Source: a virus
Strand: one strand, 5' to 3'
Length of the DNA stretch: 64,000 nt
Virus record (IMG/VR): IMGVR_UViG_3300031521_000001
Shown: in pieces, positions 2,301 through 43,160 of the stretch
Position numbering within the stretch: the stretch's first letter is position 1
Layout: every line of letters begins with the position of its first letter
Translations under genes and position numbers: made by a program
Notes under the pieces: model-generated
Database searches by the model: none
What the model was told of the DNA's origin: nothing
Seen by the model: only the letters and a program-made list of their open reading frames with translations

Positions 2301-2642
2301 ATGAAGATAATAAATTTTTTGTTTTGTAAATCTGAACAAACTATGCATATAGTTAGTGATGATATTGATAATTGTGTTAAATATAAAGATAAATGGATTC
2401 AGCCTTATACAGAAGGAATTAAGAATAGAATAATTGATGATTCTAATAATTTAATTGACGAAGTTAATTTGAAATATAAAAAAAGAAACAAAAAAGAATT
2501 AATCAGTGAAATAACATTATGTTTAAATAGAATAGATATAAACTATGAAGAACATGGTATTAGTGATAAACAATATCAATTTGAATTTGATCATTTCATA
2601 AAATCTACAATATTAATGTATAAAAAAGAAGATAATAAATGA
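2301..2642 (+). CDS. hypothetical protein
   Basis: 113-aa ORF downstream of promoter; ATGA overlap with next gene. Confidence 0.65.
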   Translation: MKIINFLFCKSEQTMHIVSDDIDNCVKYKDKWIQPYTEGIKNRIIDDSNNLIDEVNLKYKKRNKKELISEITLCLNRIDINYEEHGISDKQYQFEFDHFIKSTILMYKKEDNK

Positions 2643-3037
2643 AAGTAAATAAAATTTATGATAATTTGATTAAGAAAATCGATTTTTCATATGAAGATAT
2701 GAATGAATTCGAAGGTTGGAAATCATTATCAAATGCTAACTATTTTATGAGAGATTTTTATAATAGCAGTGATGATAATCGTAAAAACAATAATATACAC
2801 TGTATCAAATTTGGTAGACTGAAAAATGTATTTGGAGAACCTAATTTTCAAGATAATTATAATGGCTCATTTTGGTGGATATTAGAATATAAGGGAGATA
2901 AATATTCTATAGATATTAATACACACGAAGGAAGTGGTGTTTGTAAATATATTACTGATGATATCAATGTTATGTATGATGATAAATTTAACAAAGATGC
3001 ATCAGAATTTAGCGAACAATTATTTAAACAAATATAA
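2639..3037 (+). CDS. hypothetical protein
   Basis: 132-aa ORF. Confidence 0.7.
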   Translation: MKVNKIYDNLIKKIDFSYEDMNEFEGWKSLSNANYFMRDFYNSSDDNRKNNNIHCIKFGRLKNVFGEPNFQDNYNGSFWWILEYKGDKYSIDINTHEGSGVCKYITDDINVMYDDKFNKDASEFSEQLFKQI

Positions 3038-3059
3038 ATTAAAAATAATTCAATAAATA

Positions 3060-3091
3060 TTTGGTAGTTTCAAAACTTTATATTACTTTTG
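3060..3091 (+). promoter_or_regulatory. Bacteroidota-type promoter upstream of the tRNA operon leader
   Basis: TTTG (3060)-N20-TACTTTTG (3084-3091). Confidence 0.55.
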
Positions 3092-3238
3092 TTCTATAAA
3101 TAAAAAATAAATTGATTGATATAAAAAATGTGTAGTTGAACGTTACAGGAAAGTGTATCAAGATTAAGTAAATGAGTTAATGTCTTTCTATTGCTCTAAA
3201 TAAATCTTAAAAAAAGTTCTTCATATCAATCAATTTTT

Positions 3239-3276
3239 AAAAATAGAAAAAAATGACATTTTTTATATAATATATA
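3239..3276 (+). promoter_or_regulatory. putative strong late-promoter element, copy 1
   Basis: AAAAATAGAAAAAAATGACATTTTTTA-N3-AATATATA; the 27-mer is identical at 40704 and 43123. Confidence 0.6.
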
Positions 3277-3328
3277 AGAAAGTAGAAAATAAATTAAACA
3301 AAAAATAGATTTTAATATATACAATATC

Positions 3329-3430
3329 ATGAACAACATTAGTAGAAATATCACAGCGAACACAACAGCAACTACTCCCGTAACAGGAGGCAGACCAGTG
3401 GCGTATTTGGGTGATAACAATCTAAGTTGA
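3329..3430 (+). CDS. attenuator leader peptide (33 aa) MNNISRNITANTTATTPVTGGRPVAYLGDNNLS
   Basis: Short ORF between promoter and terminator, GC-richer than its surroundings; codons 12-25 are only T/A/P/V/G/R; its 3' part can pair with the terminator 5' arm. Confidence 0.7.
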   Translation: MNNISRNITANTTATTPVTGGRPVAYLGDNNLS

Positions 3431-3458
3431 TATTTTTATAAAATATTTTAATAGTGTT

Positions 3459-3501
3459 AAAACCCAAAGATGATTATTCAACTTTGGGTTTTTCTTTTTT
3501 T
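3459..3501 (+). terminator. intrinsic terminator (attenuator) in front of tRNA array
   Basis: AAAACCCAAAG (3459-3469) / CTTTGGGTTTT (3482-3492) stem followed by a U-tract. Confidence 0.85.
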
Positions 3502-3511
3502 ATAATTAATT

Positions 3512-3590
3512 GGTCCTGTAGTGGCAGAATTTCCTAAATTCTATGTGCATAATGGAATGAAAAATGAGAGTTCGAATCTCTTCTGGATCA
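3512..3590 (+). tRNA. non-canonical tRNA-Arg(CCT)-like element lacking a D-arm, with 23-nt variable region
   Basis: Acceptor GGTCCTG/CTGGATC, anticodon arm AGAAT-TTCCTAA-ATTCT, T arm GAGAG-TTCGAAT-CTCTT. Confidence 0.6.
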
Positions 3591-3616
3591 CAAATGAGTT
3601 CTTTGAGTAAATAAAT

Positions 3617-3692
3617 ATAGTAGTATAGGAGTCAGGCTTATCTAGCTATCCTTGGACGATAGAGCACGTGAGTTCAAATCTCACCTACTATA
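3617..3692 (+). tRNA. tRNA-Pro(TGG), atypical A1-U72 and A37
   Basis: ATAGTAG/CTACTAT acceptor, CTATC-CTTGGAC-GATAG, GTGAG-TTCAAAT-CTCAC. Confidence 0.75.
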
Positions 3693-3697
3693 CAAAT

Positions 3698-3776
3698 GGT
3701 CTTGTAATGGCGGAGTTTTCTAAACTCTATGTGCATAATGGAATGAAAAATGAGGGTTCGACCCCCTCCTGGACTA
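3698..3776 (+). tRNA. non-canonical tRNA-Arg(TCT)-like element lacking a D-arm, with 23-nt variable region
   Basis: GGTCTTG/CTGGACT, GGAGT-TTTCTAA-ACTCT, GAGGG-TTCGACC-CCCTC; paralogue of 3512-3590. Confidence 0.6.
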
Positions 3777-3786
3777 CAATGAATAT

Positions 3787-3847
3787 CAGGTGTATGTGGT
3801 AGTGTCTCGGGATCCGACACAAGAAAGTTCGACTCTTTCTCACCTGA
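3787..3847 (+). tRNA. miniature tRNA-Pro(CGG)-like element (61 nt, no D-arm, 9-nt anticodon loop)
   Basis: CAGGTG/CACCTG-A acceptor, GTGTC-TCGGGATCC-GACAC, GAAAG-TTCGACT-CTTTC. Confidence 0.45.
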
Positions 3848-3855
3848 CAATAAAT

Positions 3856-3931
3856 AGAGTAGTAGACCAATTGGCAGGTCGCTTCATTTGGGATGAAGAC
3901 ATTACTGCGGGTTCGATGCCCGTCTACTCTA
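3856..3931 (+). tRNA. tRNA-Pro(TGG), atypical A1-U72
   Basis: AGAGTAG/CTACTCT, D stem GACC/GGTC, CTTCA-TTTGGGA-TGAAG, GCGGG-TTCGATG-CCCGT. Confidence 0.8.
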
Positions 3932-3982
3932 CTGATTATCAAGTAGTTATACTTGTGTTCTTTGAAATGATGATACAAAAAT

Positions 3983-4057
3983 GGGGGCGCATGTACCATG
4001 GCTCGGCGATGAACACTTGCAATGTTCGTGTGGTGGATTCAATTTCCATCGTCTCCA
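3983..4057 (+). tRNA. tRNA-Ala(TGC)
   Basis: GGGGGCG/CGTCTCC with G3-U70, GAACA-CTTGCAA-TGTTC; D region irregular. Confidence 0.75.
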
Positions 4058-4129
4058 CAATTTTTAACGTTCAGTTCAAAATGACTTTTTTCCACTTTTT
4101 TATTTTTATATATAAAAATAAAAATAATT

Positions 4130-5032
4130 ATGAAGTGTAAAAATTGTGGCAATGAAATAGCTGAAAATAGAACATATTGTTCTTTGAGTTGTAGAAATAT
4201 TTATGTTAATAAAAATTTAAGAGATTATACAAAAGTAAAAGATACTGCTGATAAAAAAAGAAAAATTAAAGAAGATTTATATTATGTTAATCCTAAACAT
4301 TGTAGACAATGTGACAATGTTATAAGTTTTGAAAATAAGAGATTAGACTTCTGCAACCATAGTTGTTCTGCTTCTTATACAAATAAGGGAAACAAAGGAA
4401 GAAAACATAATTTGAGTGATGATGGTAGAAAGGCTTTAATTGAATCTGCATATAAGAATTTTAATAATCCTGATATAATAAGAAAAGATTGTTTCTTAAA
4501 AGAAAAAGAATATTATTATGAAGAACCAAAGAAGTGTTTAAATTGTGAAAAAATATTAGAATTTAAAAAAAGAAATAATATTTTTTGTAATATTAATTGC
4601 AAAAAAGAATATTATAGTAAAAATTTAGAAGATTTTAAATTATATAAATCATTAACCAAATTTAAATTTCATTTAAAATATTATAGTGATGAGTTTGATT
4701 TTATTTTGATTGAGAATAATGGTTGGTATAAAGCTAAAAATAATGGAGATAATGTTGATGGTGTTAGTAGAGATCATATGATATCTGTAAAAGATGGATT
4801 TAGAAAATTGATAAATCCTTTGTTAATTTCTCATCCATCAAATTGTGAATTGATTATTAATAGAAAAAATCAAAGCAAATCTGACAAATGTTCTTTAACA
4901 ATAGAAGAACTTTTAAATAGAGTAGAAATTTTTGAAATTAAATATGGTAAATATTATGAAAAAGATATCAAAACATATATAGATTTGAATGAGTTGAAAG
5001 ATATTTATAATGAATATAAATATTGTAATTAA
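4130..5032 (+). CDS. HNH-type homing endonuclease with repeated CxxC...FC zinc-ribbon modules, inside tRNA array
   Basis: CKNC/YCSLSC, CRQC/FCNHSC, CLNC/FCNINC; SRDH...HPSNC...N HNH-like core. Confidence 0.7.
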   Translation: MKCKNCGNEIAENRTYCSLSCRNIYVNKNLRDYTKVKDTADKKRKIKEDLYYVNPKHCRQCDNVISFENKRLDFCNHSCSASYTNKGNKGRKHNLSDDGRKALIESAYKNFNNPDIIRKDCFLKEKEYYYEEPKKCLNCEKILEFKKRNNIFCNINCKKEYYSKNLEDFKLYKSLTKFKFHLKYYSDEFDFILIENNGWYKAKNNGDNVDGVSRDHMISVKDGFRKLINPLLISHPSNCELIINRKNQSKSDKCSLTIEELLNRVEIFEIKYGKYYEKDIKTYIDLNELKDIYNEYKYCN

Positions 5033-5034
5033 AT

Positions 5035-5105
5035 GCGAATGTAGCACAATGGTAGTGCATCTGTTTACCAAGCAGAGGATGACAGTTCGATTCTGTTTAT
5101 TCGCT
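5035..5105 (+). tRNA. tRNA-Gly(ACC)
   Basis: GCGAATG/TATTCGC-U73, TCTGT-TTACCAA-GCAGA, GACAG-TTCGATT-CTGTT. Confidence 0.8.
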
Positions 5106-5116
5106 CAATAAAAAAT

Positions 5117-5201
5117 GCGATAGTCGCCTAGTGACCGATGGCGCTGGGTTGCCAATCCAGTAAGCGAAAGCACACCGTGAGTTTGAATCTCATCTATCGC
5201 T
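5117..5201 (+). tRNA. tRNA-Gly(GCC) with long variable arm
   Basis: GCGATAG/CTATCGC-U73, CTGGG-TTGCCAA-TCCAG, variable hairpin GC-GAAA-GC. Confidence 0.8.
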
Positions 5202-5222
5202 CAAATTTAAAAATTAATAAGT

Positions 5223-5674
5223 ATGAAAGAGCTAAAAGCATAACTCCTACTCAAAAGAAGAGTAGGAAATATTCAGATTCATTCAATGAATCATTTAAAT
5301 TTTATTTAGATTGTTACAGAAAAATTGGATTAGATTTTTCTGGTACATACAATCCAATTATAAAAAATGATATCAATGGTGATAGTTGCAAAGAGATTTT
5401 CAAAAAATTTGAAAATGGAGAATTCAAATTTAAAGAAATATTAACTAAACACCCAAATATAGTATTTGGTGTTATAAAAGGAAAGAAAAGTTGGGGATTA
5501 CATGTTAAAATGTGGTCAGAAGGAATTTCAGAAGGTTCATTTAGAAAAATAGAAGTCCTTGAGGAATTTTATGAAAAAAATGTCATAATACCTGATTCTT
5601 TTATGAGAGAGTTTAATGAATCAGTAATAAGACACACTAAAAAGTATCTAGATAATTATAGAATAAATAAATAA
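5223..5674 (+). CDS. hypothetical protein, start apparently frameshifted
   Basis: Track start 5138 lies inside tRNA-Gly; ATG at 5223 joins the long frame only if one A is added (MKRAKSITPTQKK...). Confidence 0.5.
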
Positions 5675-5682
5675 ATTAACAA

Positions 5683-5768
5683 GCGAGTGTCGCATAGCGG
5701 TCGATTGCACTAGCCTTCCAAGCTAGAAAGATAATATCACATCTGGGGTCCGACTCCCCATACTCGCT
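5683..5768 (+). tRNA. tRNA-Gly(TCC) with long variable arm
   Basis: GCGAGTG/TACTCGC-U73, CTAGC-CTTCCAA-GCTAG, 17-nt variable region. Confidence 0.8.
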
Positions 5769-5814
5769 CATAATCAGATAGTTATAATAATTATAACTTA
5801 GATATTTTAGATTT

Positions 5815-5885
5815 GGCCCTGTGGCGTAACGGAAGCGTATGACTATTACAAGGTTTGGGAGATGGTTCGATTCCATCTGGGGCTA
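5815..5885 (+). tRNA. tRNA-Val(TAC), weak anticodon stem
   Basis: GGCCCTG/TGGGGCT-A, loop ATTACAA, GATGG-TTCGATT-CCATC. Confidence 0.55.
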
Positions 5886-5899
5886 CTTTTTTTGAATAT

Positions 5900-5974
5900 A
5901 GGATTTTAACTCAGTTGGTTCAGAGTATTTGTTTAACAAGCAAAAAGTCATTGGTTCGATTCCAATAAGTCCTA
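5900..5974 (+). tRNA. tRNA-Val(AAC)
   Basis: AGGATTT/AAGTCCT-A, ACTC/GAGT D stem, TTTGT-TTAACAA-GCAAA, ATTGG-TTCGATT-CCAAT. Confidence 0.8.
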
Positions 5975-5981
5975 CAATAAT

Positions 5982-6053
5982 GCCGATGTAGCTCAGTGAT
6001 AGAGCGCCACCTTAGTAACGTGGATGTCGTGAGTTTAATCCTCACCCTTGGCT
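5982..6053 (+). tRNA. tRNA-Thr(AGT)
   Basis: GCCGATG/CCTTGGC, GCTC/GAGC D stem, CCAC(C)-TTAGTAA-(C)GTGG. Confidence 0.7.
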
Positions 6054-6061
6054 CAATAAAA

Positions 6062-6136
6062 CGGGATGCGATCCATAGTGAGAGGTTACTGGTATTGGAC
6101 ACCAGGTTATTGCAAGTTCGAGTCTTGTCATTCCGA
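6062..6136 (+). tRNA. tRNA-Pro(TGG)
   Basis: CGGGATG/CATTCCG-A (C1-G72, A73), CTGGT-ATTGGAC-ACCAG, GCAAG-TTCGAGT-CTTGT. Confidence 0.75.
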
Positions 6137-6146
6137 CAATAAAAAT

Positions 6147-6219
6147 GCTTTAGTAGTTCAATTGGTAGAACGTTACCCTTGTAAGGTAAATGTTGAGGGC
6201 TCAAGTCCTTTTTAAAGCT
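6147..6219 (+). tRNA. tRNA-Thr(TGT)
   Basis: GCTTTAG/TTAAAGC, GTTC/GAAC D stem, TTACC-CTTGTAA-GGTAA. Confidence 0.8.
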
Positions 6220-6227
6220 CAAATAAT

Positions 6228-6311
6228 GCACAATTCGCATAGTGGCTATTGCTCTGGCTTTGTAACCCAGCATCCGAAAGGATATCATCAGTTCGAGTCT
6301 GATATTGTGCT
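6228..6311 (+). tRNA. tRNA-Thr(TGT) with long variable arm
   Basis: GCACAAT/ATTGTGC, loop TTTGTAA, variable hairpin ATCC-GAAA-GGAT, ATCAG-TTCGAGT-CTGAT. Confidence 0.75.
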
Positions 6312-6416
6312 CAATTAAATAAACTTTTATAAAAATTATATCTATATTTATTATAAATAATTTGGTATTATGAGAATAAATAATTACTTTTATAACATAA
6401 CACAATGAAAAATTAT

Positions 6417-6488
6417 GCCTTCATAGTTAAAGGGATATAACCAAAAATTTCTAATTTTTAATTCCTGGTTCGAGTCCAGGTGAGGGTA
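6417..6488 (+). tRNA. tRNA-Arg(TCT)
   Basis: GCCTTCA/TGAGGGT-A, GTTA/TAAC D stem, AAAAA-TTTCTAA-TTTTT, CCTGG-TTCGAGT-CCAGG. Confidence 0.85.
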
Positions 6489-6489
6489 C

Positions 6490-6525
6490 AAAAAATCAAG
6501 AATCTATTTAGGTTCTTGATTTTTT
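6490..6525 (+). terminator. intrinsic terminator closing tRNA array
   Basis: AAAAATCAAGAAT...GTTCTTGATTTTT inverted repeat with U-tract. Confidence 0.65.
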
Positions 6526-6548
6526 ATATAAAAAATAATAATGTAATA

Positions 6549-7487
6549 TTGTTTAAATGTGATAAGTGTAATATAGATTTTAATAGTAAGATTGGTTTAT
6601 CAAATCATATGAGATTTCATATAAATTTTGATGATGATACTATAAACTCTATTATTGATGATTATTCTAATAATAACTTCACATATAGAGAGCTTATAGT
6701 TAAATATAAAGTTACTAATACTTCATTAGCTAAAATATTAAAAGCTGAAAATGTTAATATTACTGATAAAAAGAAAAAAAGAGGTACATGTTTTAAAAAA
6801 CATACTGAAGAGACTAAGAAAAAAATATCAAAACTTAGAACAGAATGGTTGATAAATAATCCTGATAAACATGTATGGAAGAGAAATACTAAATTTATAT
6901 CACAGCCATGCGAACACTTAAAAACTATTTTTGAAGAAAATAATATAAAATTCTTGCCTGAGTTTCCATATAATGAAGAAGAATTTGTTAAATATAGTAA
7001 TTTATTTACAAAATATAGAAACTATTCTATTGATATATCATTTCCAGAAAAAAGAATAGGTGTTGAAATTAATGGCAATCAACATTATAATTCAGATAAA
7101 ACATTAAAACCACATTATCAGGAAAAACATGACTATTTTATAAAAAATGATTGGAAAATATATGAAATATACTATTTGAAAGTTTATGATAGTGATTTTG
7201 TGTCCAATCTTATTGAAATAATAAAAAATGATAATGTTGGTGAATTTAATTATGATTTTGAATTAAGAACAAAAAATAAAACAATTTATTATTGTGATAA
7301 TTGTCATGACAATAAAGTTTATAGAAAAGGTAATATTTGTCCAGATTGTTCACATTTAAAGCAAAGAAAAGTAAAAAATAGACCAAAAAAAGAGGAACTA
7401 AAAAAATTAATTAATGAACATGGATTAGAAGGTGTTGGTAGAATATATAATGTTTCTGGTAATGCTGTTAAAAAATGGATAAAATAA
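6549..7487 (+). CDS. homing endonuclease-like protein (C2H2 finger, NUMOD3, Vsr/DUF559-like nuclease)
   Basis: CDKC...HMRFH; KHTEETKKKIS; YSIDISF...VEINGNQH. Track start 6480 overlaps a tRNA, so in-frame TTG 6549 is preferred. Confidence 0.7.
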   Translation: MFKCDKCNIDFNSKIGLSNHMRFHINFDDDTINSIIDDYSNNNFTYRELIVKYKVTNTSLAKILKAENVNITDKKKKRGTCFKKHTEETKKKISKLRTEWLINNPDKHVWKRNTKFISQPCEHLKTIFEENNIKFLPEFPYNEEEFVKYSNLFTKYRNYSIDISFPEKRIGVEINGNQHYNSDKTLKPHYQEKHDYFIKNDWKIYEIYYLKVYDSDFVSNLIEIIKNDNVGEFNYDFELRTKNKTIYYCDNCHDNKVYRKGNICPDCSHLKQRKVKNRPKKEELKKLINEHGLEGVGRIYNVSGNAVKKWIK

Positions 7488-7503
7488 TTTTATAGTAATA
7501 TTT

Positions 7504-7836
7504 TTACAAATTAAATTTATTTCCAGCCTGCAATAATTCGAATTTTTCTGAAAATTCGAATGTTTCCACTTCATATTCTTCGTAATTAAATTCTACAGGT
7601 TCCAGATAATATTTACCATTCCAATAATTCAGCACATCTTCATAATCTATCATATCTTTGCAATCATAATTTTCATTATGTGATTTATCATAATCGTGTA
7701 TGAATGTTATCGAATATTTTATGCAACTTTCTTCACTATCAAACAATTTTACTTTCACTGTATCTTCATCAAAATTTTGTATAGTATATACAAAATATTT
7801 TTGACTATTATTTTCGAATAATTTGATATGTTTCAT
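7504..7836 (-). CDS. small protein, K[FY]N[IL] family
   Basis: MKHIKLFE...NKFNL. Confidence 0.75.
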   Translation of the reverse strand: MKHIKLFENNSQKYFVYTIQNFDEDTVKVKLFDSEESCIKYSITFIHDYDKSHNENYDCKDMIDYEDVLNYWNGKYYLEPVEFNYEEYEVETFEFSEKFELLQAGNKFNL

Positions 7837-8330
7837 ATATTGAATTTTTTTGTGTTTATATAGAAATCAAACTCTATTTCAATTTCTTTGATAATATTAT
7901 CTAATATAGACAAATCATTTTTGTCTATTATTTTTATATCGTGAACATTTGATCTATCCCAATAAATGTAAGCATCTATTGTTTCATACTTATTAAGTGC
8001 TGATGTTATAATATCATAAATATCATTATTTTTGCTTTTAAAATCATCATAATTTCTTCTTTCCAAGATCACACATAGTTCCAATCCTTCTGATCTGTGA
8101 TATGTTAATAATCTTATTTTGAATAAATCTGTATATTTATATCTATATGATATAGTAATTTCATTAGAATCATCAAAATATATTTTAACTGATGATCCTT
8201 TGAAGTCATCTAATTCTTTTAGTCTAAATAGAATATCTTTTAATTTTTCTGAAAAATCTTTAAATATATTATTTTTGACTTTTGAACTATCATGTTTTAA
8301 TAATGTTTCAAACTGTTTGATATATTTCAT
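7833..8330 (-). CDS. small protein, K[FY]N[IL] family
   Basis: MKYIKQFE...KKFNI. Confidence 0.75.
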   Translation of the reverse strand: MKYIKQFETLLKHDSSKVKNNIFKDFSEKLKDILFRLKELDDFKGSSVKIYFDDSNEITISYRYKYTDLFKIRLLTYHRSEGLELCVILERRNYDDFKSKNNDIYDIITSALNKYETIDAYIYWDRSNVHDIKIIDKNDLSILDNIIKEIEIEFDFYINTKKFNI

Positions 8331-8377
8331 ATGTTATATATTAAAATTTTTTGTTGTTATTTTTTTATATATAAGAT

Positions 8378-9082
8378 ATGGAATATATAAAAGAATACAA
8401 CAAATACAATGAGGATTTAATCATTGAAAAATTAGACATTAAATCTCTATTAGACACATTTAAATCTTTGGATAGTAGAAAGGTTGCAACCTTTCTTGTT
8501 GGTAGCTTATTAACAGTTATGTCTGTAACACAGACTATAAATTATATAAGCAGTTTGAATGTAAATTCAGCTCAGAAAGCAGTATTAATACAAACTGTCG
8601 ATAAATTTAAAGATCCATTGAGTTTTGGTGTAAGTAGATTGGCTTATGAACACATAATGAGTCATGAAAAATTGAAATTAAAAGCTTATACTATTAATGA
8701 CGGAAAAGTCACAGTAGGATATGGGCATGCAGAACCAATTAAAAAATCAAAATTTAAAATAGGTCAACAAATAACGCCAGAAAAAGCAAATGAATTATTA
8801 AAGCAAGATGTTAAAGTTGCATATGATGGAGTTAGACGTATATTTGAAGAATGGCACAAAAAGGGAATAAATATAAAATTGACACAAAATCAATTCGATG
8901 TTTTGGTATCTTTAGCATTTAACATGGGAATTGATGGATTAAGAACATCAGAATTTATTCAAGCATTAAAAAATAAAGATATTAAGAATGCATCTGAATT
9001 AATAAAAACAACTGGATTAAGAGACGGATTTGCAGGACTAGTTGATAGAAGAGAAGAAGAATATAACATATTTATATCATAA
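8378..9082 (+). CDS. phage lysozyme (GH24 muramidase) with N-terminal extension
   Basis: HE-KLKLKAY...DGKVTVGYGH, LTQNQFDVLVSLAFNMG, GLVDRREEE. Confidence 0.9.
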   Translation: MEYIKEYNKYNEDLIIEKLDIKSLLDTFKSLDSRKVATFLVGSLLTVMSVTQTINYISSLNVNSAQKAVLIQTVDKFKDPLSFGVSRLAYEHIMSHEKLKLKAYTINDGKVTVGYGHAEPIKKSKFKIGQQITPEKANELLKQDVKVAYDGVRRIFEEWHKKGINIKLTQNQFDVLVSLAFNMGIDGLRTSEFIQALKNKDIKNASELIKTTGLRDGFAGLVDRREEEYNIFIS

Positions 9083-9112
9083 AAAAAGAGATTCAAATGA
9101 ATCTCTTTTTTT
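9082..9112. terminator. bidirectional terminator
   Basis: AAAAAAAGAGATTCA-AA-TGAATCTCTTTTTT between convergent genes. Confidence 0.8.
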
Positions 9113-9420
9113 TATTTAAGTCCTTTAAGAACATCTATTTGTTCAGTTAACCATTTCATATCAAAGTTTTGATAAACATTCAATTTAACATGTTCTAATG
9201 CAAGTATTCTTTCATCAAGTCTATTATTTTCAATTAAACTTTTGATTTTTTCAACTAATTCTTCTTTGCCATTGATGGTAATATCTTTGTCAATTGAATC
9301 ATCATTGGTAATTTTAATAGAAATTGATTCATCTATTAAATCATAGATTTGATTTCTCAAAATATCTTTTGATTCATACTTTTTTTCAACTACTTCTTCT
9401 ATTTTACTAAATTTAATCAT
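9112..9420 (-). CDS. hypothetical protein
   Basis: 102-aa ORF. Confidence 0.7.
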   Translation of the reverse strand: MIKFSKIEEVVEKKYESKDILRNQIYDLIDESISIKITNDDSIDKDITINGKEELVEKIKSLIENNRLDERILALEHVKLNVYQNFDMKWLTEQIDVLKGLK

Positions 9421-9438
9421 ATTTATTTTATTTATTTT

Positions 9439-9708
9439 TTATTTGTAAGTATACCCTGATCTATTAGCCCAAACAAGTCCAGAAACTTGAATATATGTAA
9501 CATCATTCACCATGATAGCAGGATATGTATTAGATAGAGTAGTTCCTGTTATATATGGATATTCATATCTCAATACGCTATCCACAGTTGACATTTTTTT
9601 AATTGACCATATAGGATCTGTGTCTTGAGTACCTGGTGTAGCATAACCATAATATACTGTTGCTCCACTTCCAGTTGCAGGATCAACTCTTAAAAGTTCC
9701 ATTGCCAT
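9439..9708 (-). CDS. hypothetical (possibly structural) protein
   Basis: 89-aa ORF with YYGYA.PG...W.IKK...W.NR motifs. Confidence 0.7.
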   Translation of the reverse strand: MAMELLRVDPATGSGATVYYGYATPGTQDTDPIWSIKKMSTVDSVLRYEYPYITGTTLSNTYPAIMVNDVTYIQVSGLVWANRSGYTYK

Positions 9709-9769
9709 AATAATTTATATTTTTCTTTTATATATAAAAAAACACATTTCATATTTTATGTATATATAA

Positions 9770-9799
9770 AAAAAACTTGTAATAAATTACAAGTTTTTT
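9770..9799 (-). terminator. terminator downstream of tmRNA
   Basis: AAAAAACTTGTAAT-AA-ATTACAAGTTTTTT. Confidence 0.75.
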
Positions 9800-9801
9800 A
9801 T

Positions 9802-10168
9802 TGGTGGAGATGTCGATATCCGAGAATCGAGTCCAATATTGCCTTTCAGCTTCGTCTACAAGTTTAGTTCATTTTTTCTAAAATAAACAAAAATACATAA
9901 TTTTTAAGTGGTCATCATTAAATCCACCAAACATTTTTACACCTTAAAATAGTTTGCTAACAAGGTTTCTGATTTTAGTCTGTTTAGGCTACTAAAACTT
10001 CATTACCAACAACAGCTTCAGAAACTGCGAAAGTGGAATTAGAAGTTAAAATATGCGTATGTGCGTTGCCATTTAAATTTTACCCATTAATTTATTAATC
10101 GCTAACTTAGATAATGCGATACTTGCTGATAACCTTATTCTACATTACTGTCAAAACCGTTCATCCCC
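9802..10168 (-). ncRNA. ssrA: tmRNA
   Basis: 5' GGGGATGAACGGTTTTGACAG, 3' CATCTCCACCA with G3-U70; tag frame 10070-9984 GNAHTHILTSNSTFAVSEAVVGNEVLVA* after TAAAT. Confidence 0.9.
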
Positions 10169-10188
10169 TTTTGTTCTTTATATAGTAT

Positions 10189-10491
10189 TTAAAAATTATA
10201 AAGTTTTTCTATTTTTAATAATTTAACCTTTCTGACATCATTATTAAGATATTTTTTAATTTCATTCATAATTTCCAATGTATAGTTATCAAATATTTTA
10301 TTTTTTAATGCACTATCAATCTCTAAGAATAAGTGTTCTAATTTTGAATTATCATTAATATCAATAGATATAAACTTAAGTGCCAGTTCTCTTATACATG
10401 ATGCTTGACTATAATATTGACTACTTACATAATACATTTTTATAAATTCAAGTTTATTGATTAGAGTTTGTTTTCTACATATTGTTTTCAT
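10189..10491 (-). CDS. hypothetical protein, RxxKL family
   Basis: Ends DVRKVKLLKIEKLYNF; promoter position implies start at MKTICRK. Confidence 0.65.
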   Translation of the reverse strand: MKTICRKQTLINKLEFIKMYYVSSQYYSQASCIRELALKFISIDINDNSKLEHLFLEIDSALKNKIFDNYTLEIMNEIKKYLNNDVRKVKLLKIEKLYNF

Positions 10492-10495
10492 TTTA

Positions 10496-10527
10496 CAAAT
10501 ATACAATAATTAATTTGATTTATCAAA
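10496..10527 (-). promoter_or_regulatory. Bacteroidota-type promoter
   Basis: Minus strand TTTG-N20-TATATTTG. Confidence 0.6.
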
Positions 10528-10532
10528 AAACA

Positions 10533-10754
10533 TTAGTTTTTATGTAATAAAGTTTCATCATAATTTTCACTATCTAAAAAATTTTCAATTATACTATTTA
10601 TATAATCTTTATTTTTTTCGTATCTTGGTAAAACGTCAATAGAGTTATTTACATTTTTTCTAAAAAAAATATCTCCTTTATTTAAATCTATCATTTCAAT
10701 TGCATATAATGAAATAATATTATCTTTTTTTTCTACGCTAAATTTTTCAATCAT
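10533..10754 (-). CDS. hypothetical protein
   Basis: 73-aa ORF in gene run. Confidence 0.6.
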   Translation of the reverse strand: MIEKFSVEKKDNIISLYAIEMIDLNKGDIFFRKNVNNSIDVLPRYEKNKDYINSIIENFLDSENYDETLLHKN

Positions 10755-10758
10755 ACTA

Positions 10759-11130
10759 TTATTCCGTTATTTTTGAACTTATATCATTTTTAATTTCATC
10801 TGTTGTTATATTTGGATATTTTTCTTTTATAGATAAATACAATCTATCTCTATCATCTTTCAATTTTTCAATTTTTTCATAATAAGGTTGTATTATACTT
10901 TGAATTGATTTTATTTCTCTTTCCAAATATATCAATTTTTCATTTAGTTCCATTGTTTTTCTAATATCATTTTCATCAGAATAAACTATAATTTTCATTT
11001 CATCTTGAATTTTTTGAAACATTTCTTTTTTCTTCATTATTATTGGCTCTTGTTCTGCAATTTCCTTTAAGTTCTGAAGATAATAGTTTCTTATCCTTAC
11101 AGCTTCATCAATATATTGTTCTGCTATCAT
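10759..11130 (-). CDS. coiled-coil hypothetical protein
   Basis: 123-aa ORF, ATGA overlap. Confidence 0.7.
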   Translation of the reverse strand: MIAEQYIDEAVRIRNYYLQNLKEIAEQEPIIMKKKEMFQKIQDEMKIIVYSDENDIRKTMELNEKLIYLEREIKSIQSIIQPYYEKIEKLKDDRDRLYLSIKEKYPNITTDEIKNDISSKITE

Positions 11131-11531
11131 TTTTCCGAATTTCTTTTTTCTATTAAATATGAAACATATTCATCATCAGTCATTGACTCAGTTAATTTAT
11201 ACTCATCTTCTGTATTAGAAATATCAGAAGAGAAATTATTTTCTATTTCATATTTTATTTTATACCACTCATCAATGTCAAAATCAACATCTTCAATTCT
11301 ATCATTTAATCCATATTCTTTATATTTTGAAATTAAATATCCAACATCAACAGTTTTACCTATTGTACCAGAAAAATAATCAATCAAAAAACTCGATATA
11401 GTAGAGAAATCGTCTAATTCTATAGCTCTATCTATATAATAATCAGAAAGATATCCAGCCATTTTGATGATCTTCATTTCATATTCTTTTAATTTCCTAG
11501 CTGAATCTAATTTTTTGTTAGTTTTTGTCAT
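11127..11531 (-). CDS. hypothetical protein
   Basis: 134-aa ORF. Confidence 0.7.
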   Translation of the reverse strand: MTKTNKKLDSARKLKEYEMKIIKMAGYLSDYYIDRAIELDDFSTISSFLIDYFSGTIGKTVDVGYLISKYKEYGLNDRIEDVDFDIDEWYKIKYEIENNFSSDISNTEDEYKLTESMTDDEYVSYLIEKRNSEK

Positions 11532-11541
11532 TTAGTGTAAT

Positions 11542-12294
11542 TTATTTTTTAAGTTCGTCCTCAATAATTGTTTTTAATTGATTATATATCTCATCTTTCA
11601 ATTTAGTTGGATATTTTAATATTTTTTCTGATATTAAATTTGCATAATATTCAACAGCATCAGCTTCTACATTTTCTTGAATCATTCCAATAAAACTTGG
11701 ATTAGGAATTAGTTCTTCTATTGGAATTATCAATTTTACAGAATAATTACTTTTGAACATTTTAAACATCATTTTAAGAGGATCAACTTTTGGTTCCTCA
11801 TTTTTAACTATAATTTGTTTATCACCATTTACTAATTTTTCATCTTCATCATCCCAATTTCTTTCTTGTATACTTGGTATATCAGCTCCTGGCATATTTT
11901 TTCTCCATTCTTCTAGCATAGCTTTCTTTTCTTGTGCTGATAAAACGACAGATCCTTCTACTTGTTCCTGTTTAACAGAAGATTGAGACATTGAATTATC
12001 AGAAAGAGTTACAGGTTTTTCAATAAATTTAACTTGTGCTCCAGCATTTGGAGAGTCCTGTATTTTACTAGTGTCAATATTTTTAAGTTGTTGAGCCATA
12101 TTTACTAACGGATCACTTGATGGTGCTTGAAAAAAAGTATCAGGATTAATTGATTCTTCTACCATATCATATTTTTTTGCTAGTATATCCTTTTTTATAC
12201 TAACATTATCACTCATTACATAGAAATTGACATCTTCTTTAATGATGTTAACTCTTTCTCCTGTTTGTTTATTCACGAAAACACTATTTGTCAT
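11542..12294 (-). CDS. hypothetical protein
   Basis: 250-aa ORF. Confidence 0.75.
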   Translation of the reverse strand: MTNSVFVNKQTGERVNIIKEDVNFYVMSDNVSIKKDILAKKYDMVEESINPDTFFQAPSSDPLVNMAQQLKNIDTSKIQDSPNAGAQVKFIEKPVTLSDNSMSQSSVKQEQVEGSVVLSAQEKKAMLEEWRKNMPGADIPSIQERNWDDEDEKLVNGDKQIIVKNEEPKVDPLKMMFKMFKSNYSVKLIIPIEELIPNPSFIGMIQENVEADAVEYYANLISEKILKYPTKLKDEIYNQLKTIIEDELKK

Positions 12295-12363
12295 AAAAAT
12301 TATTTATTTTTTATTATATATAATGAATTATAGTACCGATTAAAAAAAAGTTTTAAACAAATA

Positions 12364-12684
12364 ATGAAATATTTAAAAACATTTGAAGAAGGAATATACA
12401 GCAGCAGAGAAAAAATGTATGTTGATGCTTATGGTAAAATACACAGAAATCTTAAAAAAATATTGTGTATTGATAATCATATTGGAGAGTTAGAAGATAC
12501 ATATAAATTAACAATAGGGCAAGTTTACAATATAAGAATAAAGGAGTTACATACTATATCAGTTATTGACGATAACGGAACTGAACTGTTTTTTAATCCT
12601 TCAGAAATTTCTAAGAATTTCTCAACTTCTCAAAGTTTAGAAGAATATGAAATAAAAAAAAATACTGAAAAATTTAATTTATGA
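12364..12684 (+). CDS. small protein, K[FY]N[IL] family
   Basis: MKYLKTFEE...EKFNL. Confidence 0.75.
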   Translation: MKYLKTFEEGIYSSREKMYVDAYGKIHRNLKKILCIDNHIGELEDTYKLTIGQVYNIRIKELHTISVIDDNGTELFFNPSEISKNFSTSQSLEEYEIKKNTEKFNL

Positions 12685-13121
12685 AATATATAAAAAAATT
12701 TAAGAATAATAAAGAATCTGATTATGTTGGTAAGTTTTGTGTTACACAAACAGAAGATGACAATGATGTAAAAATGTCAATATTGCAATGTAATCGTGTA
12801 GACTTTCCTATCAAATCTGATATTAATGTGTTTGTATCATTTGAATGTTTTGATATAGATAATAATAATATTTCTTATCCAGTAGGTGATAATGAATCAT
12901 TATCAATAGAAGATTTTAACAAAATTAATTTTATGAACGCAACTGAATTTTATAATAGTTATAAAGATATATGTGAGAAACTATATTATAAAATTATTGA
13001 AGATTTAAAAAATGTAGAACTAGAATATTGGCGTCGTATGATTTTAAAAAATTACAAAAAAGAATTAGATAAAATACCTGAGTTTAAATTTTTTGTTGAT
13101 TCTGATAAATTCAATATATAA
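12681..13121 (+). CDS. small protein, K[FY]N[IL] family
   Basis: MKYIKKF...DKFNI. Confidence 0.75.
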   Translation: MKYIKKFKNNKESDYVGKFCVTQTEDDNDVKMSILQCNRVDFPIKSDINVFVSFECFDIDNNNISYPVGDNESLSIEDFNKINFMNATEFYNSYKDICEKLYYKIIEDLKNVELEYWRRMILKNYKKELDKIPEFKFFVDSDKFNI

Positions 13122-13156
13122 TTTTTATATATACGACATAGAAAAAAAATCAAAAA

Positions 13157-13780
13157 ATGATAAGTAAGGAACTCAGATATTCTGAATTGAAATATAATGG
13201 TGAAATTTTTACTGAACAGTGGAAAATTGATGAGATTTTAATTGATAATAAATTCAATTGGATGGTTAATGCTGAAATAAAAAATGCTAGACTAGAAATT
13301 TTTCAAAATACATTAGTTTGGAATGCTGGTATTTGGTATAATGGAGATTGGTATTTTGGTGTTTGGAGAGATGGTGAGTGGAGATATGGAAATTGGCAAA
13401 ACGGTGTGTGGTACAATGGAGTATGGAGAAATGGTACATTTAAATCAGGTATTATTTATAAAGGTAATTTTTTCAAAGGAAAAATAGATGGAGGAGAAAT
13501 AAGAGGAGGAAATTTTATTGATGTTGAAATATCTCCAAATGTAGTTGAATATACTGGAGAAGAATATCAAGTAAAAAAACAAGAAGAGCAATCTCAGTCT
13601 AATACTCAAGTTGTAACAGCACAAGCTCAACCTAATACACAAGCTCAACCTAATGCGCCAGATAAAGTCAAAGTTCACAGTTCACAATCAGAAGTGAATC
13701 AAGTGATTCAACCAAAAAAAGAAAATGTAAAATATAATATGTATAGAATGAAAAATTTCGAATCATTCTCAAAAAAATAA
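13157..13780 (+). CDS. W-x-x-G pentapeptide-repeat protein
   Basis: WNAGI-WYNGD-WYFGV-WRDGE-WRYGN-WQNGV-WYNGV-WRNGT-FKSG. Confidence 0.75.
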   Translation: MISKELRYSELKYNGEIFTEQWKIDEILIDNKFNWMVNAEIKNARLEIFQNTLVWNAGIWYNGDWYFGVWRDGEWRYGNWQNGVWYNGVWRNGTFKSGIIYKGNFFKGKIDGGEIRGGNFIDVEISPNVVEYTGEEYQVKKQEEQSQSNTQVVTAQAQPNTQAQPNAPDKVKVHSSQSEVNQVIQPKKENVKYNMYRMKNFESFSKK

Positions 13781-13789
13781 TTAAACCCA

Positions 13790-14481: not shown

Positions 14482-14485
14482 TAAC

Positions 14486-14761
14486 ATGAAAAGAACAAAA
14501 GATTTCGATACATTCACTGAATCAGTAGGAGATTTAGAAGATAGCTTCGTTAAAATTAATATAGATGAAACTGAATTAGAAGTTTCGGATAGACCAAAAG
14601 TAGGTAAATTAAATCAAATACCTGGTACAATAATAATTGAAACTCCAAGTAAGACTGATGAATATAATGCTAAAATGAGATTAGGAGGAGAAGTTATTGT
14701 TGATCCTAAATTTCCTGAAAAATCTATACACCACGTCAAAAAATTTAATGATTTTCATTAA
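14486..14761 (+). CDS. hypothetical protein
   Basis: MKRTKDFDTFTE start, VKKFNDF end. Confidence 0.7.
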   Translation: MKRTKDFDTFTESVGDLEDSFVKINIDETELEVSDRPKVGKLNQIPGTIIIETPSKTDEYNAKMRLGGEVIVDPKFPEKSIHHVKKFNDFH

Positions 14762-40703: not shown

Positions 40704-40741
40704 AAAAATAGAAAAAAATGACATTTTTTAAGTAATATATA
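40704..40741 (+). promoter_or_regulatory. putative strong late-promoter element, copy 2
   Basis: Identical 27-mer + N3 + AATATATA upstream of protease gene. Confidence 0.6.
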
Positions 40742-43122: not shown

Positions 43123-43160
43123 AAAAATAGAAAAAAATGACATTTTTTATAGAATATATA
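43123..43160 (+). promoter_or_regulatory. putative strong late-promoter element, copy 3
   Basis: Identical 27-mer + N3 + AATATATA upstream of MCP. Confidence 0.6.

What the first reader, a model, noticed from the sequence alone, without database searches (positions are those of the whole stretch)
3329..3501. Leader-peptide attenuator whose codons match the downstream phage tRNA array (candidate tRNA-depletion sensor)
Seen: ATG 3329-TGA 3430 encodes MNNISRNITANTTATTPVTGGRPVAYLGDNNLS, followed by a strong terminator (3459-3501) ending 10 nt before the first tRNA-like gene. The leader segment TTTGGGT-GA-TAACA (3406-3419) is complementary to TGTTA-AA-ACCCAAA (3455-3468), which overlaps the terminator 5' arm, so a mutually exclusive antiterminator can form. 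Codons 12-25 are 14 consecutive Thr/Ala/Pro/Val/Gly/Arg codons (ACA ACA GCA ACT ACT CCC GTA ACA GGA GGC AGA CCA GTG GCG), several of them rare in this AT-rich genome. The 15 array members cover exactly and only those six amino acids. Established: this geometry is that of trp/thr/ilv ribosome-mediated attenuation, and host anticodon nucleases deplete tRNAs during infection. Inference: ribosome stalling on depleted or uncharged tRNAs leaves 3406-3419 free, blocks the terminator, and induces replacement tRNAs on demand. I know of no described leader-peptide attenuator controlling a phage tRNA array.
Basis: partly seen in the sequence, partly recalled or inferred. Interest (0 to 1): 0.93.

Follow-up and report, generated by a model that had tools for sequence, protein, structure and literature searches.

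The report
Codon-mirroring leader switch before phage tRNAs
A tiny conserved gene spelled in the codons of the tRNA genes that follow it, joined to a transcription stop hairpin with a competing RNA fold, likely lets this giant phage transcribe that tRNA block only when ribosomes read those codons slowly, a control that my literature searches did not find described for tRNA genes.

Summary
ORF 3329-3430, the hairpin plus T-run 3459-3501 and the competing pairing 3406-3419 / 3455-3468 are all present, and the tRNA array starts about 10 nt later.

- **Conservation:** the module occurs in 8 distinct sequences from about 0.7-Mb phages. Each time it precedes an array holding only Pro, Ala, Gly, Val, Thr and Arg tRNAs.
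- **Covariation:** when the terminator's 5' arm changes, both the ORF strand and the 3' arm change with it.
- **Generality:** in LR756504 and LR756501 I found 13 further modules, 12 before other tRNA blocks and one before EF-G. Each leader before a tRNA block is rich in the amino acids of its own block (0 of 200000 permutations match this).
- **Specificity:** the ORF-to-terminator complementarity is absent from 101 control ORF-terminator pairs.
- **Promoter:** the module shares an exact promoter motif with the head protease and major capsid genes.

Best reading (0.8): a ribosome-mediated attenuator of the thr/ilv kind, here gating tRNA genes. There are no expression data, and the link to host tRNA nucleases is untested.

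My paper searches found no description of this control. This scan has noted the same kind of element before on other phage DNA, and two of those notes were later marked in doubt.

The parts
3238..3278 (+). Shared phage promoter-like motif: an exact 20-nt core at 3245-3264 plus an A/T-rich -10-like box.
   Evidence: The core occurs exactly three times in the window (3245, 40710, 43129). About 0.59 matches are expected at up to 2 mismatches. The motif is conserved in all 8 family members and precedes two modules of LR756501. The consensus scan gives a 10-of-12 sigma-70-like match at 3244-3271. The promoter function itself is inferred.
3329..3430 (+). Leader ORF: 33 codons plus a TGA stop.
   Evidence: The start codon and reading frame are kept in 8 distinct relatives of 31-43 codons. 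The invariant Pro column uses all four Pro codons and the invariant Val column uses three Val codons. Translation is inferred, not shown.
3353..3403 (+). Sensor run, codons 9-25. Sixteen of the 17 codons are Thr, Ala, Pro, Val, Gly or Arg.
   Evidence: The codon table is. In relatives, the aligned columns hold the same amino-acid set despite indels and substitutions.
3406..3419 (+). Antiterminator 5' strand, inside the ORF and 9 nt before the stop codon.
   Evidence: This is the best duplex with the terminator's 5' arm region. It forms in the nascent RNA fold. It covaries with the 5' arm at offsets +3 and +5.
3455..3468 (+). Antiterminator 3' strand, overlapping the terminator's 5' arm.
3459..3501 (+). 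Intrinsic-terminator-like hairpin (3459-3492) and T-run (to 3501).
   Evidence: Folds are. The sequence is invariant in 5 close relatives. In distant relatives a different hairpin with the same shape takes its place.
3512..6489 (+). tRNA array for Arg, Pro, Ala, Gly, Val and Thr, interrupted by ORFs 4130-5032 and 5138-5674.
   Evidence: ARAGORN and Rfam. The relatives' arrays hold only the same six amino acids: L161 15 of 15, L162 10 of 10, L163 7 of 7, L004 11 of 11, L001 4 of 4.
40710..40729 (+). Second exact copy of the promoter core, before the head maturation protease gene (40761-43106).
43129..43148 (+). Third exact copy of the promoter core, before the major capsid protein gene (43210-45042).
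   Evidence: Pfam Gp23, E 2.6e-25.

Best explanation
The 33-codon ORF, the hairpin with its T-run and the competing pairing most likely form a ribosome-mediated (leader-peptide) transcription attenuator. It would gate the Pro/Ala/Gly/Val/Thr/Arg tRNA array that starts about 10 nt after the T-run.

**Shown by sequence and comparison**
- A promoter-like motif shared with the head genes precedes the ORF.
- The ORF's middle is a run of codons for exactly the amino acids served by the downstream tRNAs.
- The stretch right after that run (3406-3419) is complementary to the terminator's 5' arm region (3455-3468).
- ORF, complementarity and array type are conserved, with compensatory changes.
- Analogous modules with other codon sets precede other tRNA blocks in two published huge phages.

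**Inferred mechanism**
1. RNA polymerase starts at the shared motif and a ribosome follows it onto the leader.
2. If charged tRNAs for the run are plentiful, the ribosome moves over 3406-3419 to the stop codon. That keeps this strand from pairing, so the terminator hairpin would form and transcription would end at about 3495-3501.
3. If decoding of the run is slow, the ribosome would stall upstream of 3406. Strand 3406-3419 would then pair with 3455-3468 as soon as the latter is made. The terminator's 5' arm would be taken and polymerase would read into the tRNA genes.
4. The new tRNAs would relieve the stall, closing a negative feedback loop.

The trigger is probably the demand of late proteins, which are rich in these residues. 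Host tRNA cleavage or amino-acid starvation would act through the same path.
For: **1. Close relatives**
- The module 3235-3594 is 92.8-93.9% identical in 5 IMG/VR loci, while flanking genes are 79-87% identical.
- Changes and in-frame indels (+9 and -3 nt) are concentrated in the codon run.

**2. Distant relatives**
- They were found through a tRNA anchor (L021) and through a 16-nt core.
- Together with the window they give 8 distinct sequences in 5 lineages.
- All have the ATG, a Thr/Ala/Val/Pro run, an invariant Gly-Gly-Arg-Pro-Val, a stop codon, a hairpin and a T-run.
- The invariant Pro column uses 4 codons and the invariant Val column uses 3.

**3. The antiterminator**
- In all 8 sequences the best ORF-to-5'-arm duplex falls just after the invariant codons.
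- Shuffles reaching the observed energy, out of 1000: 3, 46, 9, 22, 3, 2, 44, 26.
- Register table: at offsets +3 and +5 the 5' arm base changes, and both the ORF partner and the 3' arm partner change with it. No pair in the core helix is broken.
- The nascent RNA 3404-3481 folds into exactly this antiterminator at -16.8 kcal/mol.

**4. The arrays**
- Every family member is followed only by Pro, Ala, Gly, Val, Thr and Arg tRNAs.

**5. Generality**
- In LR756504 and LR756501, 12 further leader-terminator modules precede other tRNA blocks, and each leader is rich in its own block's amino acids. A further module precedes an EF-G gene.
- Over 13 modules, the mean share of leader residues that belong to the module's own block is 0.475, against 0.185 for other blocks. 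None of 200000 permutations reaches this.
- In 13 of 13 modules the duplex starts right after the codon run. Fisher's combined p is 2e-19.
- Negative control: of 101 small-ORF-plus-terminator pairs not followed by a tRNA, 2 reach p<=0.01 and 5 reach p<=0.05, with median p 0.55. Of 10 pairs followed by a tRNA, 7 and 8 do.
- tRNAs lying behind a module: 31 of 38 in LR756504 and 53 of 59 in LR756501.

**6. Context**
- The same exact 20-nt motif precedes the head protease and major capsid genes.
- The capsid protein has the highest share of the six amino acids among 63 ORFs, 40.7% against a mean of 22.9%.
Against: - **No expression data.** Nothing shows transcripts, 3' ends or ribosome footprints. 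All support is comparative.
- **The terminator wins at equilibrium.** It scores -22.7 against -17.3 kcal/mol for the forced antiterminator, and masking a stalled or a terminating ribosome does not change the minimum-energy fold. The switch therefore has to be kinetic.
- **No consistent upstream hairpin.** I found no anti-antiterminator or pause hairpin (the 1:2 hairpin of trp). Without a ribosome the nascent RNA already forms the antiterminator, so an untranslated leader would read through. This differs from trp.
- **Partial cover at the stop codon.** Strand 3406-3412 lies 15 nt or more before the stop codon. A ribosome resting at the stop would cover only part of it. This rests on footprint size recalled from general knowledge.
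- **The match is not perfect.** The window's run holds one Asn codon. Two of the 13 modules have weak complementarity (63 and 91 of 1000 shuffles). Two modules have an own-set share no higher than their cross-set share (His/Phe and Lys). For His/Phe, a Trp tRNA seen by eye was not counted.
- **Possible selection bias.** Two of the 13 modules were added by eye from coordinates rather than by the scan.
- **Search bias.** The 16-nt core used to find relatives makes the invariance of those five codons partly a product of the search. Only L021 and the close relatives were found independently of it.
- **Unknown host and polymerase.** The host is unknown, as are the polymerase that reads the motif and whether transcription and translation are coupled there.
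- **Earlier doubts.** Two earlier notes of this scan on the same kind of element were later marked 'in doubt', with no reasons shown.
Confidence: 0.8

Rival explanations
1. An ordinary small-protein gene with its own terminator. The peptide would have a function of its own, the hairpin would simply end its transcript, and the tRNAs would be made by constitutive leak-through or from elsewhere. The complementarity would be incidental.
For: The peptide is conserved, including an invariant five-residue core. In L035 an ordinary 70-codon ORF with a terminator also sits directly before a tRNA of the same odd type, so a terminator next to a tRNA is not in itself special.
Against: The complementarity is conserved through compensatory changes. 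It is specific to pairs that precede tRNAs, 7 of 10 against 2 of 101 at p<=0.01. Thirteen unrelated-looking leaders each mirror their own tRNA block, which a free-standing peptide function does not explain.
Confidence: 0.07
2. A translation-independent RNA switch. The same terminator/antiterminator pair would be set by a protein or by direct tRNA binding, T-box-like, and the ORF would be incidental.
For: The alternative folds exist whether or not the ORF is read. Nucleotide-level conservation of the untranslated flanks is very high in close relatives.
Against: No T-box or other cis-regulatory family matched 2500-17000 at E<=1. The start codon, frame and stop are kept across length changes. Conserved amino-acid columns vary at synonymous sites. 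The sensor is a run of many codons for up to six amino acids, not one specifier.
Confidence: 0.08
3. A relic or a chance ORF. The 3' end of the ORF would be a remnant of a homing-endonuclease gene, and the rest would be low-complexity sequence.
For: An 18-nt stretch of the ORF's 3' part recurs, in the same frame, inside an HNH-type gene on L010/L011. Homing-endonuclease genes lie in and around the array.
Against: That 18-mer was the search pattern itself, and the three other hits were plainly chance. Distant family members have different 3' ends but the same architecture.
Confidence: 0.02

Closest known systems
Multivalent leader-peptide attenuators of enterobacterial amino-acid operons (thr and ilvGMEDA leaders; also trp, his, leu, pheA). 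Named from general knowledge, not from a call.
   Same: A short translated ORF with a run of codons for the amino acids concerned. It is followed by an intrinsic terminator whose 5' arm can instead pair with a strand at the end of the ORF. Several amino acids are sensed by one leader.
   Different: The regulated genes are tRNA genes (in related phages also EF-G, L7/L12 and aminoacyl-tRNA synthetase genes), not biosynthetic enzymes. The element is phage-borne and sits behind a motif shared with head genes. No consistent 1:2 pause hairpin was found. The product (tRNA) feeds back directly on the sensor.
Leader-peptide attenuation of the pheST aminoacyl-tRNA synthetase operon in E. coli (recalled, not checked in a call).
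   Same: A gene of the translation apparatus is controlled by a codon-run leader with a terminator/antiterminator choice.
   Different: A single amino acid is sensed. It is a cellular gene for a protein, not tRNA genes.
T-box riboswitches (recalled, and tested through Rfam).
   Same: They read tRNA status and choose between terminator and antiterminator upstream of translation-related genes.
   Different: T-boxes bind tRNA directly, with no ribosome. Their conserved Stem I and T-box motifs gave no Rfam match here.
Earlier notes of this scan on other phage genomes (e1-2978539, e1-5943215, e1-5886956, e1-5375453 and others).
   Same: A short leader written in the amino acids of the downstream tRNA block, a switchable terminator, and in one case a shared promoter.
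   Different: Different genomes and sequences: no look-alike stretch of this module is on record in the scan. These are unchecked AI notes. One is marked 'stands' and two are marked 'in doubt'.

Membership tests
Ribosome-mediated (leader-peptide) transcription attenuators | A short ORF with a start codon lies immediately upstream of the regulated genes and is conserved as an ORF. | tested here: met
   ORF 3329-3430. Eight relatives keep the ATG, frame and stop despite lengths of 31-43 codons. There is synonymous variation in invariant amino-acid columns.
Ribosome-mediated (leader-peptide) transcription attenuators | A run of codons is cognate to what the regulated genes supply. | tested here: met
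   Fourteen of 14 codons (12-25) are in the six amino acids of the array, and 11 have an exact anticodon there. Across 13 modules the match is specific to each module's own array: 0 of 200000 permutations reach it.
Ribosome-mediated (leader-peptide) transcription attenuators | An intrinsic terminator lies between the leader and the regulated genes. | tested here: met
   Hairpin 3459-3492 of -14 to -16 kcal/mol plus a T-run to 3501, with the tRNA starting at about 3512. Termination activity itself was not tested.
Ribosome-mediated (leader-peptide) transcription attenuators | A mutually exclusive antiterminator exists whose 5' strand lies at the end of the leader ORF. | tested here: met
.
Ribosome-mediated (leader-peptide) transcription attenuators | An upstream 1:2 (pause / anti-antiterminator) hairpin ensures termination when the leader is not translated. 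| tested here: inconclusive
   No consistent pairing was seen by eye across relatives. The nascent RNA without a ribosome keeps the antiterminator. Not every known attenuator has this feature.
Ribosome-mediated (leader-peptide) transcription attenuators | Read-through depends on leader translation and rises on stalling at the regulatory codons. | not testable with these tools
   No RNA run holds the stretch. This needs reporters, Term-seq or Ribo-seq.
T-box riboswitch | Conserved Stem I with a specifier loop, and the T-box antiterminator motif. | tested here: not met
   No T-box match in 2500-17000 at E<=1 against Rfam 15.

The most novel reading that the evidence does not exclude
These ~0.6-0.7-Mb phages run a distributed decoding-speed homeostat. 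Almost every block of their private translation apparatus sits behind its own miniature test gene written in that block's codons. The blocks include tRNA arrays for each group of amino acids, an EF-G gene, an L7/L12 gene and aminoacyl-tRNA synthetase genes embedded in the arrays. The phage would thus measure, amino-acid group by amino-acid group, how fast ribosomes decode during late gene expression, and would top up only the limiting parts. The same circuit would automatically replace tRNAs that host defence nucleases destroy.
Probability: 0.45. Interest if true: 0.95.

Novelty: new variant of a known kind. Interest (0 to 1): 0.88.

Why it matters
**A new target for a textbook mechanism.** Leader-peptide attenuation is known for amino-acid biosynthesis and a few synthetase genes. 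Here the same logic appears to control tRNA genes, and the product of the regulated genes is the very molecule the sensor measures.

**An explanation for grouped tRNA genes.** It would explain why huge phages group their tRNA genes by amino acid. It would also give the first cis-regulatory rule for when phage tRNAs are made.

**A directly testable question.** Are phage tRNAs a constitutive codon-usage patch, or an on-demand response to decoding stress such as late-gene demand, starvation or host tRNA cleavage? This module makes that open question testable.

**Possible tools.** The modules are small, self-contained and come in many codon flavours. They could serve as natural sensors of the decoding speed of chosen codons.

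**Immediate material.** Two published genomes (LR756504, LR756501) hold at least 13 such modules that can be studied now.

Tried and rejected
- **Whole genome:** none is held for the window. The nearest record, G001, is a 96-kb fragment with the same array only.
- **RNA evidence:** no RNA holder is listed for 3100-4100. All 24 runs are DNA, labelled peat, lake water or soil.
- **blastn against the phage collection:** 3040-3620 gave no homologue of the leader.
- **Formal pair counting:** MAFFT and the covariance model R1 both misaligned the 5' arm of the window group. I therefore did not use the count of structure pairs and made a register-anchored table by script instead.
- **R1 on Lak phages:** no match in Lak-C1, and two weak partial matches in Lak-A1 that I did not examine. 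This says nothing firm about Lak phages.
- **HNH-relic idea:** rejected.
- **Double hits on two ~0.7-Mb contigs (L051, L063):** these are the antisense strand of a Pro-rich repeat ORF, so they are chance.
- **Equilibrium folds with ribosome masks:** they do not flip the structure, so that test cannot decide.
- **Genetic-code check:** opening TAG or TGA lengthens ORFs no more than expected, which is not decisive. If TGA were read through, the leader would end 7 codons later, still before the hairpin (read).
- **The 1:2 hairpin:** looked for by eye in the relatives. None was consistent.
- **Permutation test:** It was redone from stored files by coordinates.

Full report
**What is in the window**

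The window is 25.0% G+C. Its only similarity to deposited phages is about 70% identity over a homing-endonuclease-like stretch, shared with huge uncultured phages (LR756501 and others) and Lak Prevotella phages.

- ORF 3329-3430 (33 codons, TGA stop) is there as described.
- It is followed by a hairpin at 3459-3492 (15-nt arms, -14 to -16 kcal/mol) that runs into a T-run ending at 3501.
- The first tRNA-like gene starts at about 3512.
- ARAGORN at its default setting calls ten tRNAs between 3617 and 6489: Pro tgg twice, Gly acc, gcc and tcc, Val tac and aac, Thr tgt twice, and Arg tct.
- Rfam adds 5982-6053 and a weak hit at 3698-3776.
- At a lowered ARAGORN threshold there are 15 calls. Fourteen fall in the six amino acids Thr, Ala, Pro, Val, Gly and Arg. 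One odd gene is called Ile(tat), although its paralogue reads as Arg.
- Codons 12-25 of the ORF are all from these six amino acids. Eleven of the 14 have an exact anticodon in the array.
- CCC, GCG, GGC and GTG are rare codons in this window.

**The competing fold**

Strand 3406-3419 pairs with 3455-3468 as a 7-bp helix, a small internal loop and a 5-bp helix.

- This is the best duplex between the entire ORF and the terminator's 5' arm region, at -15.9 kcal/mol. It was reached by 3 of 1000 dinucleotide shuffles and 0 of 1000.
- The nascent RNA 3404-3481, before the 3' arm exists, folds into exactly this structure at -16.8 kcal/mol.
- The full RNA prefers the terminator, -22.7 against -17.3 kcal/mol for the forced antiterminator.
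- Masking a stalled or a terminating ribosome does not change the equilibrium fold.

**Close relatives**

The exact hairpin occurs on five IMG/VR contigs.

- There the stretch 3235-3594 is 92.8-93.9% identical to the window, while flanking genes are 79-87% identical.
- Two of the five have a different upstream gene, so the conserved unit begins at about 3235.
- Differences are concentrated in the codon run and include in-frame indels of +9 and -3 nt. The untranslated flanks and the hairpin are invariant.

**Distant relatives and covariation**

A metagenome scan anchored on an odd tRNA, not on the leader, found L021. It has a homologous leader with a different hairpin. A scan with a 16-nt core shared by these sequences then gave L043, L092, L094 and L103/L107. 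The other AT-rich hits were unrelated coding sequence, and two hits on ~0.7-Mb contigs were the antisense strand of a repeat ORF.

- With the window this makes 8 distinct sequences in 5 lineages. They lie on contigs that CheckV rates 4-22% complete at 27-159 kb, which suggests genomes near 0.7 Mb (the genome size is my inference).
- All have the ATG, a Thr/Ala/Val/Pro run, an invariant Gly-Gly-Arg-Pro-Val, a stop, a hairpin and a T-run. The invariance of the five-codon core is partly due to the search pattern.
- The invariant Pro column uses all four Pro codons and the invariant Val column uses three. This points to selection on what is decoded.
- In all 8, the best ORF-to-5'-arm duplex lies just after the invariant codons. 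Shuffles reaching the observed energy ranged from 2 to 46 of 1000.
- A register-anchored table shows that where the 5' arm differs (offsets +3 and +5), both its ORF partner and its 3' arm partner differ to match. No pair in the core helix is broken.
- MAFFT and a covariance model misaligned one group, so I did not use the formal pair counter.

**The arrays**

Every family member is followed only by Pro, Ala, Gly, Val, Thr and Arg tRNAs: 15 of 15, 10 of 10, 7 of 7, 11 of 11 and 4 of 4 ARAGORN calls in the loci examined.

**The same design with other codons**

Searching the covariance model on five deposited phage records gave only weak hits. Inspection showed that four of the five top hits I examined were other small ORFs with terminators in front of other tRNA blocks, with each leader rich in its block's amino acids. 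The fifth precedes an EF-G gene (see below).

I fetched LR756504 (636 kb) and LR756501 (735 kb) whole. I then scanned for a hairpin plus T-run, a small ORF ending at most 70 nt upstream of it, and a tRNA within 400 nt downstream.

| Genome | Leader is rich in | tRNAs that follow |
|---|---|---|
| LR756504 | Phe/His | His, Phe |
| LR756504 | Leu/Ser/Cys | Leu, Ser, Cys |
| LR756504 | Lys/Gln/Asp/Tyr | Asp, Tyr, Gln, Lys |
| LR756504 | Lys/Gln/Tyr | Tyr, Gln, Lys |
| LR756504 | Ile/Ala/Val/Glu/Gly | Glu, Ala, Ile, Val, Gly |
| LR756504 | Thr/Ile/Arg/Asn/Met | Thr, Asn, Arg, Ile, Met |
| LR756504 | Ile/Met/Arg | Arg, Ile, Met |
| LR756501 | Ser/Lys/His/Phe/Trp | Trp, His, Phe, Lys, Ser |
| LR756501 | Leu | five Leu |
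| LR756501 | Ile/Met/Gln/Glu | Met, Gln, Ile, Glu |

Three more modules were seen by eye:
- A Lys run before three Lys tRNAs.
- A 42-codon Thr/Pro/Ala/Val/Arg/Gly leader behind the window's promoter motif, before the Arg/Thr/Val/Ala/Gly/Pro array of LR756501. It has the same function as the window's module but a different sequence.
- A Tyr/Asn/Asp/Cys/Ile leader before an L7/L12 gene and a Cys/Ile/Asp/Asn/Tyr array.

**Statistics**

The test used 13 modules: ten from the scan, two by coordinates, and the window.

- The mean share of leader residues that belong to a module's own array set is 0.475, against 0.185 for other arrays. None of 200000 permutations reaches this.
- In 13 of 13 modules the best ORF-to-5'-arm duplex begins right after the longest run of own-set codons. 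Shuffles reaching the observed energy, out of 1000: 10, 0, 0, 10, 0, 0, 1, 0, 5, 63, 91, 1, 0. Fisher's combined p is 2e-19.
- Negative control: 101 small-ORF-plus-terminator pairs in the two genomes are not followed by a tRNA. Two of them reach p<=0.01 and five reach p<=0.05, with median p 0.55. That is what chance gives.
- Of the 10 pairs followed by a tRNA, 7 reach p<=0.01 and 8 reach p<=0.05.
- One of the two control 'hits' precedes an EF-G gene. The other is an ORF that overlaps a tRNA gene.
- tRNAs lying within 6 kb behind a module: 31 of 38 in LR756504 and 53 of 59 in LR756501. The rest are mostly single Met tRNAs, odd calls and two CTA-anticodon tRNAs.
- Class II synthetase genes sit inside the Lys block and the Thr/Asn block of LR756504.

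**Promoter and timing**

A 20-nt core at 3245-3264 recurs exactly at 40710 and 43129, with about 0.59 matches expected at up to 2 mismatches.

- The other two copies lie just upstream of the head maturation protease and the Gp23-type major capsid protein genes.
- The motif is conserved in all 8 family members and, with two mismatches, at two places in LR756501, one of which (174268) lies before a module; a copy read by eye precedes a second LR756501 module.
- The modules of LR756504 share a different upstream motif (seen).
- The capsid protein has the highest share of the six amino acids among 63 ORFs in the window, 40.7% against 22.9% overall.
- I infer that the array is switched on together with the head genes, whose products need these tRNAs most.

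**Mechanism**

Shown by sequence and comparison:
- the parts and their order;
- their conservation;
- the compensatory changes;
- the match between each leader and its own array.

Inferred:
- the leader is translated;
- a ribosome that decodes the run quickly occupies 3406-3419 and lets the terminator form;
- a ribosome stalled in the run leaves 3406-3419 free to capture 3455-3468, so polymerase reads into the tRNAs;
- the new tRNAs then shut the switch again.

Differences from the trp textbook case:
- There is no consistent upstream 1:2 hairpin.
- The antiterminator strand lies inside the ORF, 9 nt or more before the stop codon.

**Rivals**

- A free-standing peptide gene with an ordinary terminator (0.07) does not explain.
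- A translation-independent RNA switch (0.08) is disfavoured by the kept frame, the synonymous variation and the absence of any Rfam cis-regulatory match.
- A homing-endonuclease relic (0.02) rests on an 18-mer that was the search pattern itself.

**What is known**

The closest known systems are the multivalent leader-peptide attenuators of the thr and ilv operons, and the leader of the pheST synthetase operon. I name these from general knowledge.

- I found no paper describing a leader-peptide attenuator before tRNA genes in my searches (listings and abstract starts only).
- The main text of the huge-phage paper PMC7162821 has no occurrence of 'attenuat', 'leader' or 'terminator' (a find over the text). 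Its supplements were not read.
- This scan has noted the same kind of element before on other phage DNA. One such note was later marked as standing and two as in doubt, without reasons. None overlaps this sequence.

**Verdict**

The attenuator reading is supported by independent comparative tests and stands at 0.8. It is a new variant of a known kind of control, and it awaits a direct test.

Noticed in passing
window 9802-10168 (-): A full-length tmRNA gene (Rfam RF00023, 52.8 bits against a gathering score of 47). It lies a few kb from the tRNA array.
   Followed up: no
window 3512-3592 and 3698-3776; also L021, L035, L042: Two paralogous tRNA-like genes share an 18-nt core where a normal D or variable region would be. 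They escape ARAGORN at the default threshold and score below Rfam's tRNA cut-off (24.5 bits). The anticodon loop reads as Arg (CCT and TCT) by eye. The same core occurs in tRNA-like genes on unrelated-looking metagenome contigs. A further tRNA-like stretch at about 3785-3850 was called by no tool.
   Followed up: partly
window 5035-5106, 5900-5975, 5982-6054; 5117-5202, 5683-5769, 6228-6312: There are tRNAs with A at the first anticodon position (Gly acc, Val aac, Thr agt). There are also unusually long (85-87 nt) Gly and Thr tRNAs. The same pattern is seen in relatives.
   Followed up: no
window 4130-5032, 5138-5674, 6480-7487, 45191-45910: ORFs interrupt or flank the array and the capsid gene. 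6480-7487 and 45191-45910 match the HNH homing-endonuclease family phrog_559. 4130-5032 matches phrog_23051 of unknown function. 5138-5674 has no match and overlaps the end of a tRNA. A stretch at about 4082-4118, before ORF 4130, looks by eye like a degenerate copy of the shared promoter motif. If so, the distal half of the array may have a second entry point.
   Followed up: partly
window 3062-3096: A promoter-like pair of boxes resembles the Bacteroidota consensus as I recall it (a -33 box and a -7 box). It lies just after the upstream gene. In the distant relatives the same kind of boxes lie between the shared motif and the leader ATG. Read by eye only.
   Followed up: no
LR756504 67891-65765 (-), locus L182: A phage EF-G gene with all five Pfam EF-G domains sits behind a 23-codon Ile/Lys-rich leader and a terminator. 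The leader-to-terminator complementarity is significant: 0 of 300 shuffles reach it.
   Followed up: partly
LR756501 locus L220 7959-8330 (-); LR756504 loci L198 18748-19884 (-) and L185 14215-15375 (-): A ribosomal protein L7/L12 gene lies between a leader-terminator and its tRNA array. Class II aminoacyl-tRNA synthetase genes lie inside the Lys block (D/K/N type) and inside the Thr/Asn block (G/H/P/S/T type with an anticodon-binding domain).
   Followed up: partly
LR756501 690585-690738 (+): Two adjacent tRNAs with anticodon CTA (ARAGORN label 'Pyl') are candidate amber suppressors. They do not lie behind a leader module.
   Followed up: no
window 15194-15267 and 16156-16230: Single tRNA-Asn and tRNA-Met genes have no leader or terminator module upstream. 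In the two published genomes, single Met tRNAs likewise stand outside modules.
   Followed up: partly
window 43210-45042: The major capsid protein is the ORF richest in Thr, Ala, Pro, Val, Gly and Arg in the window, 40.7% against 22.9% overall.
   Followed up: yes
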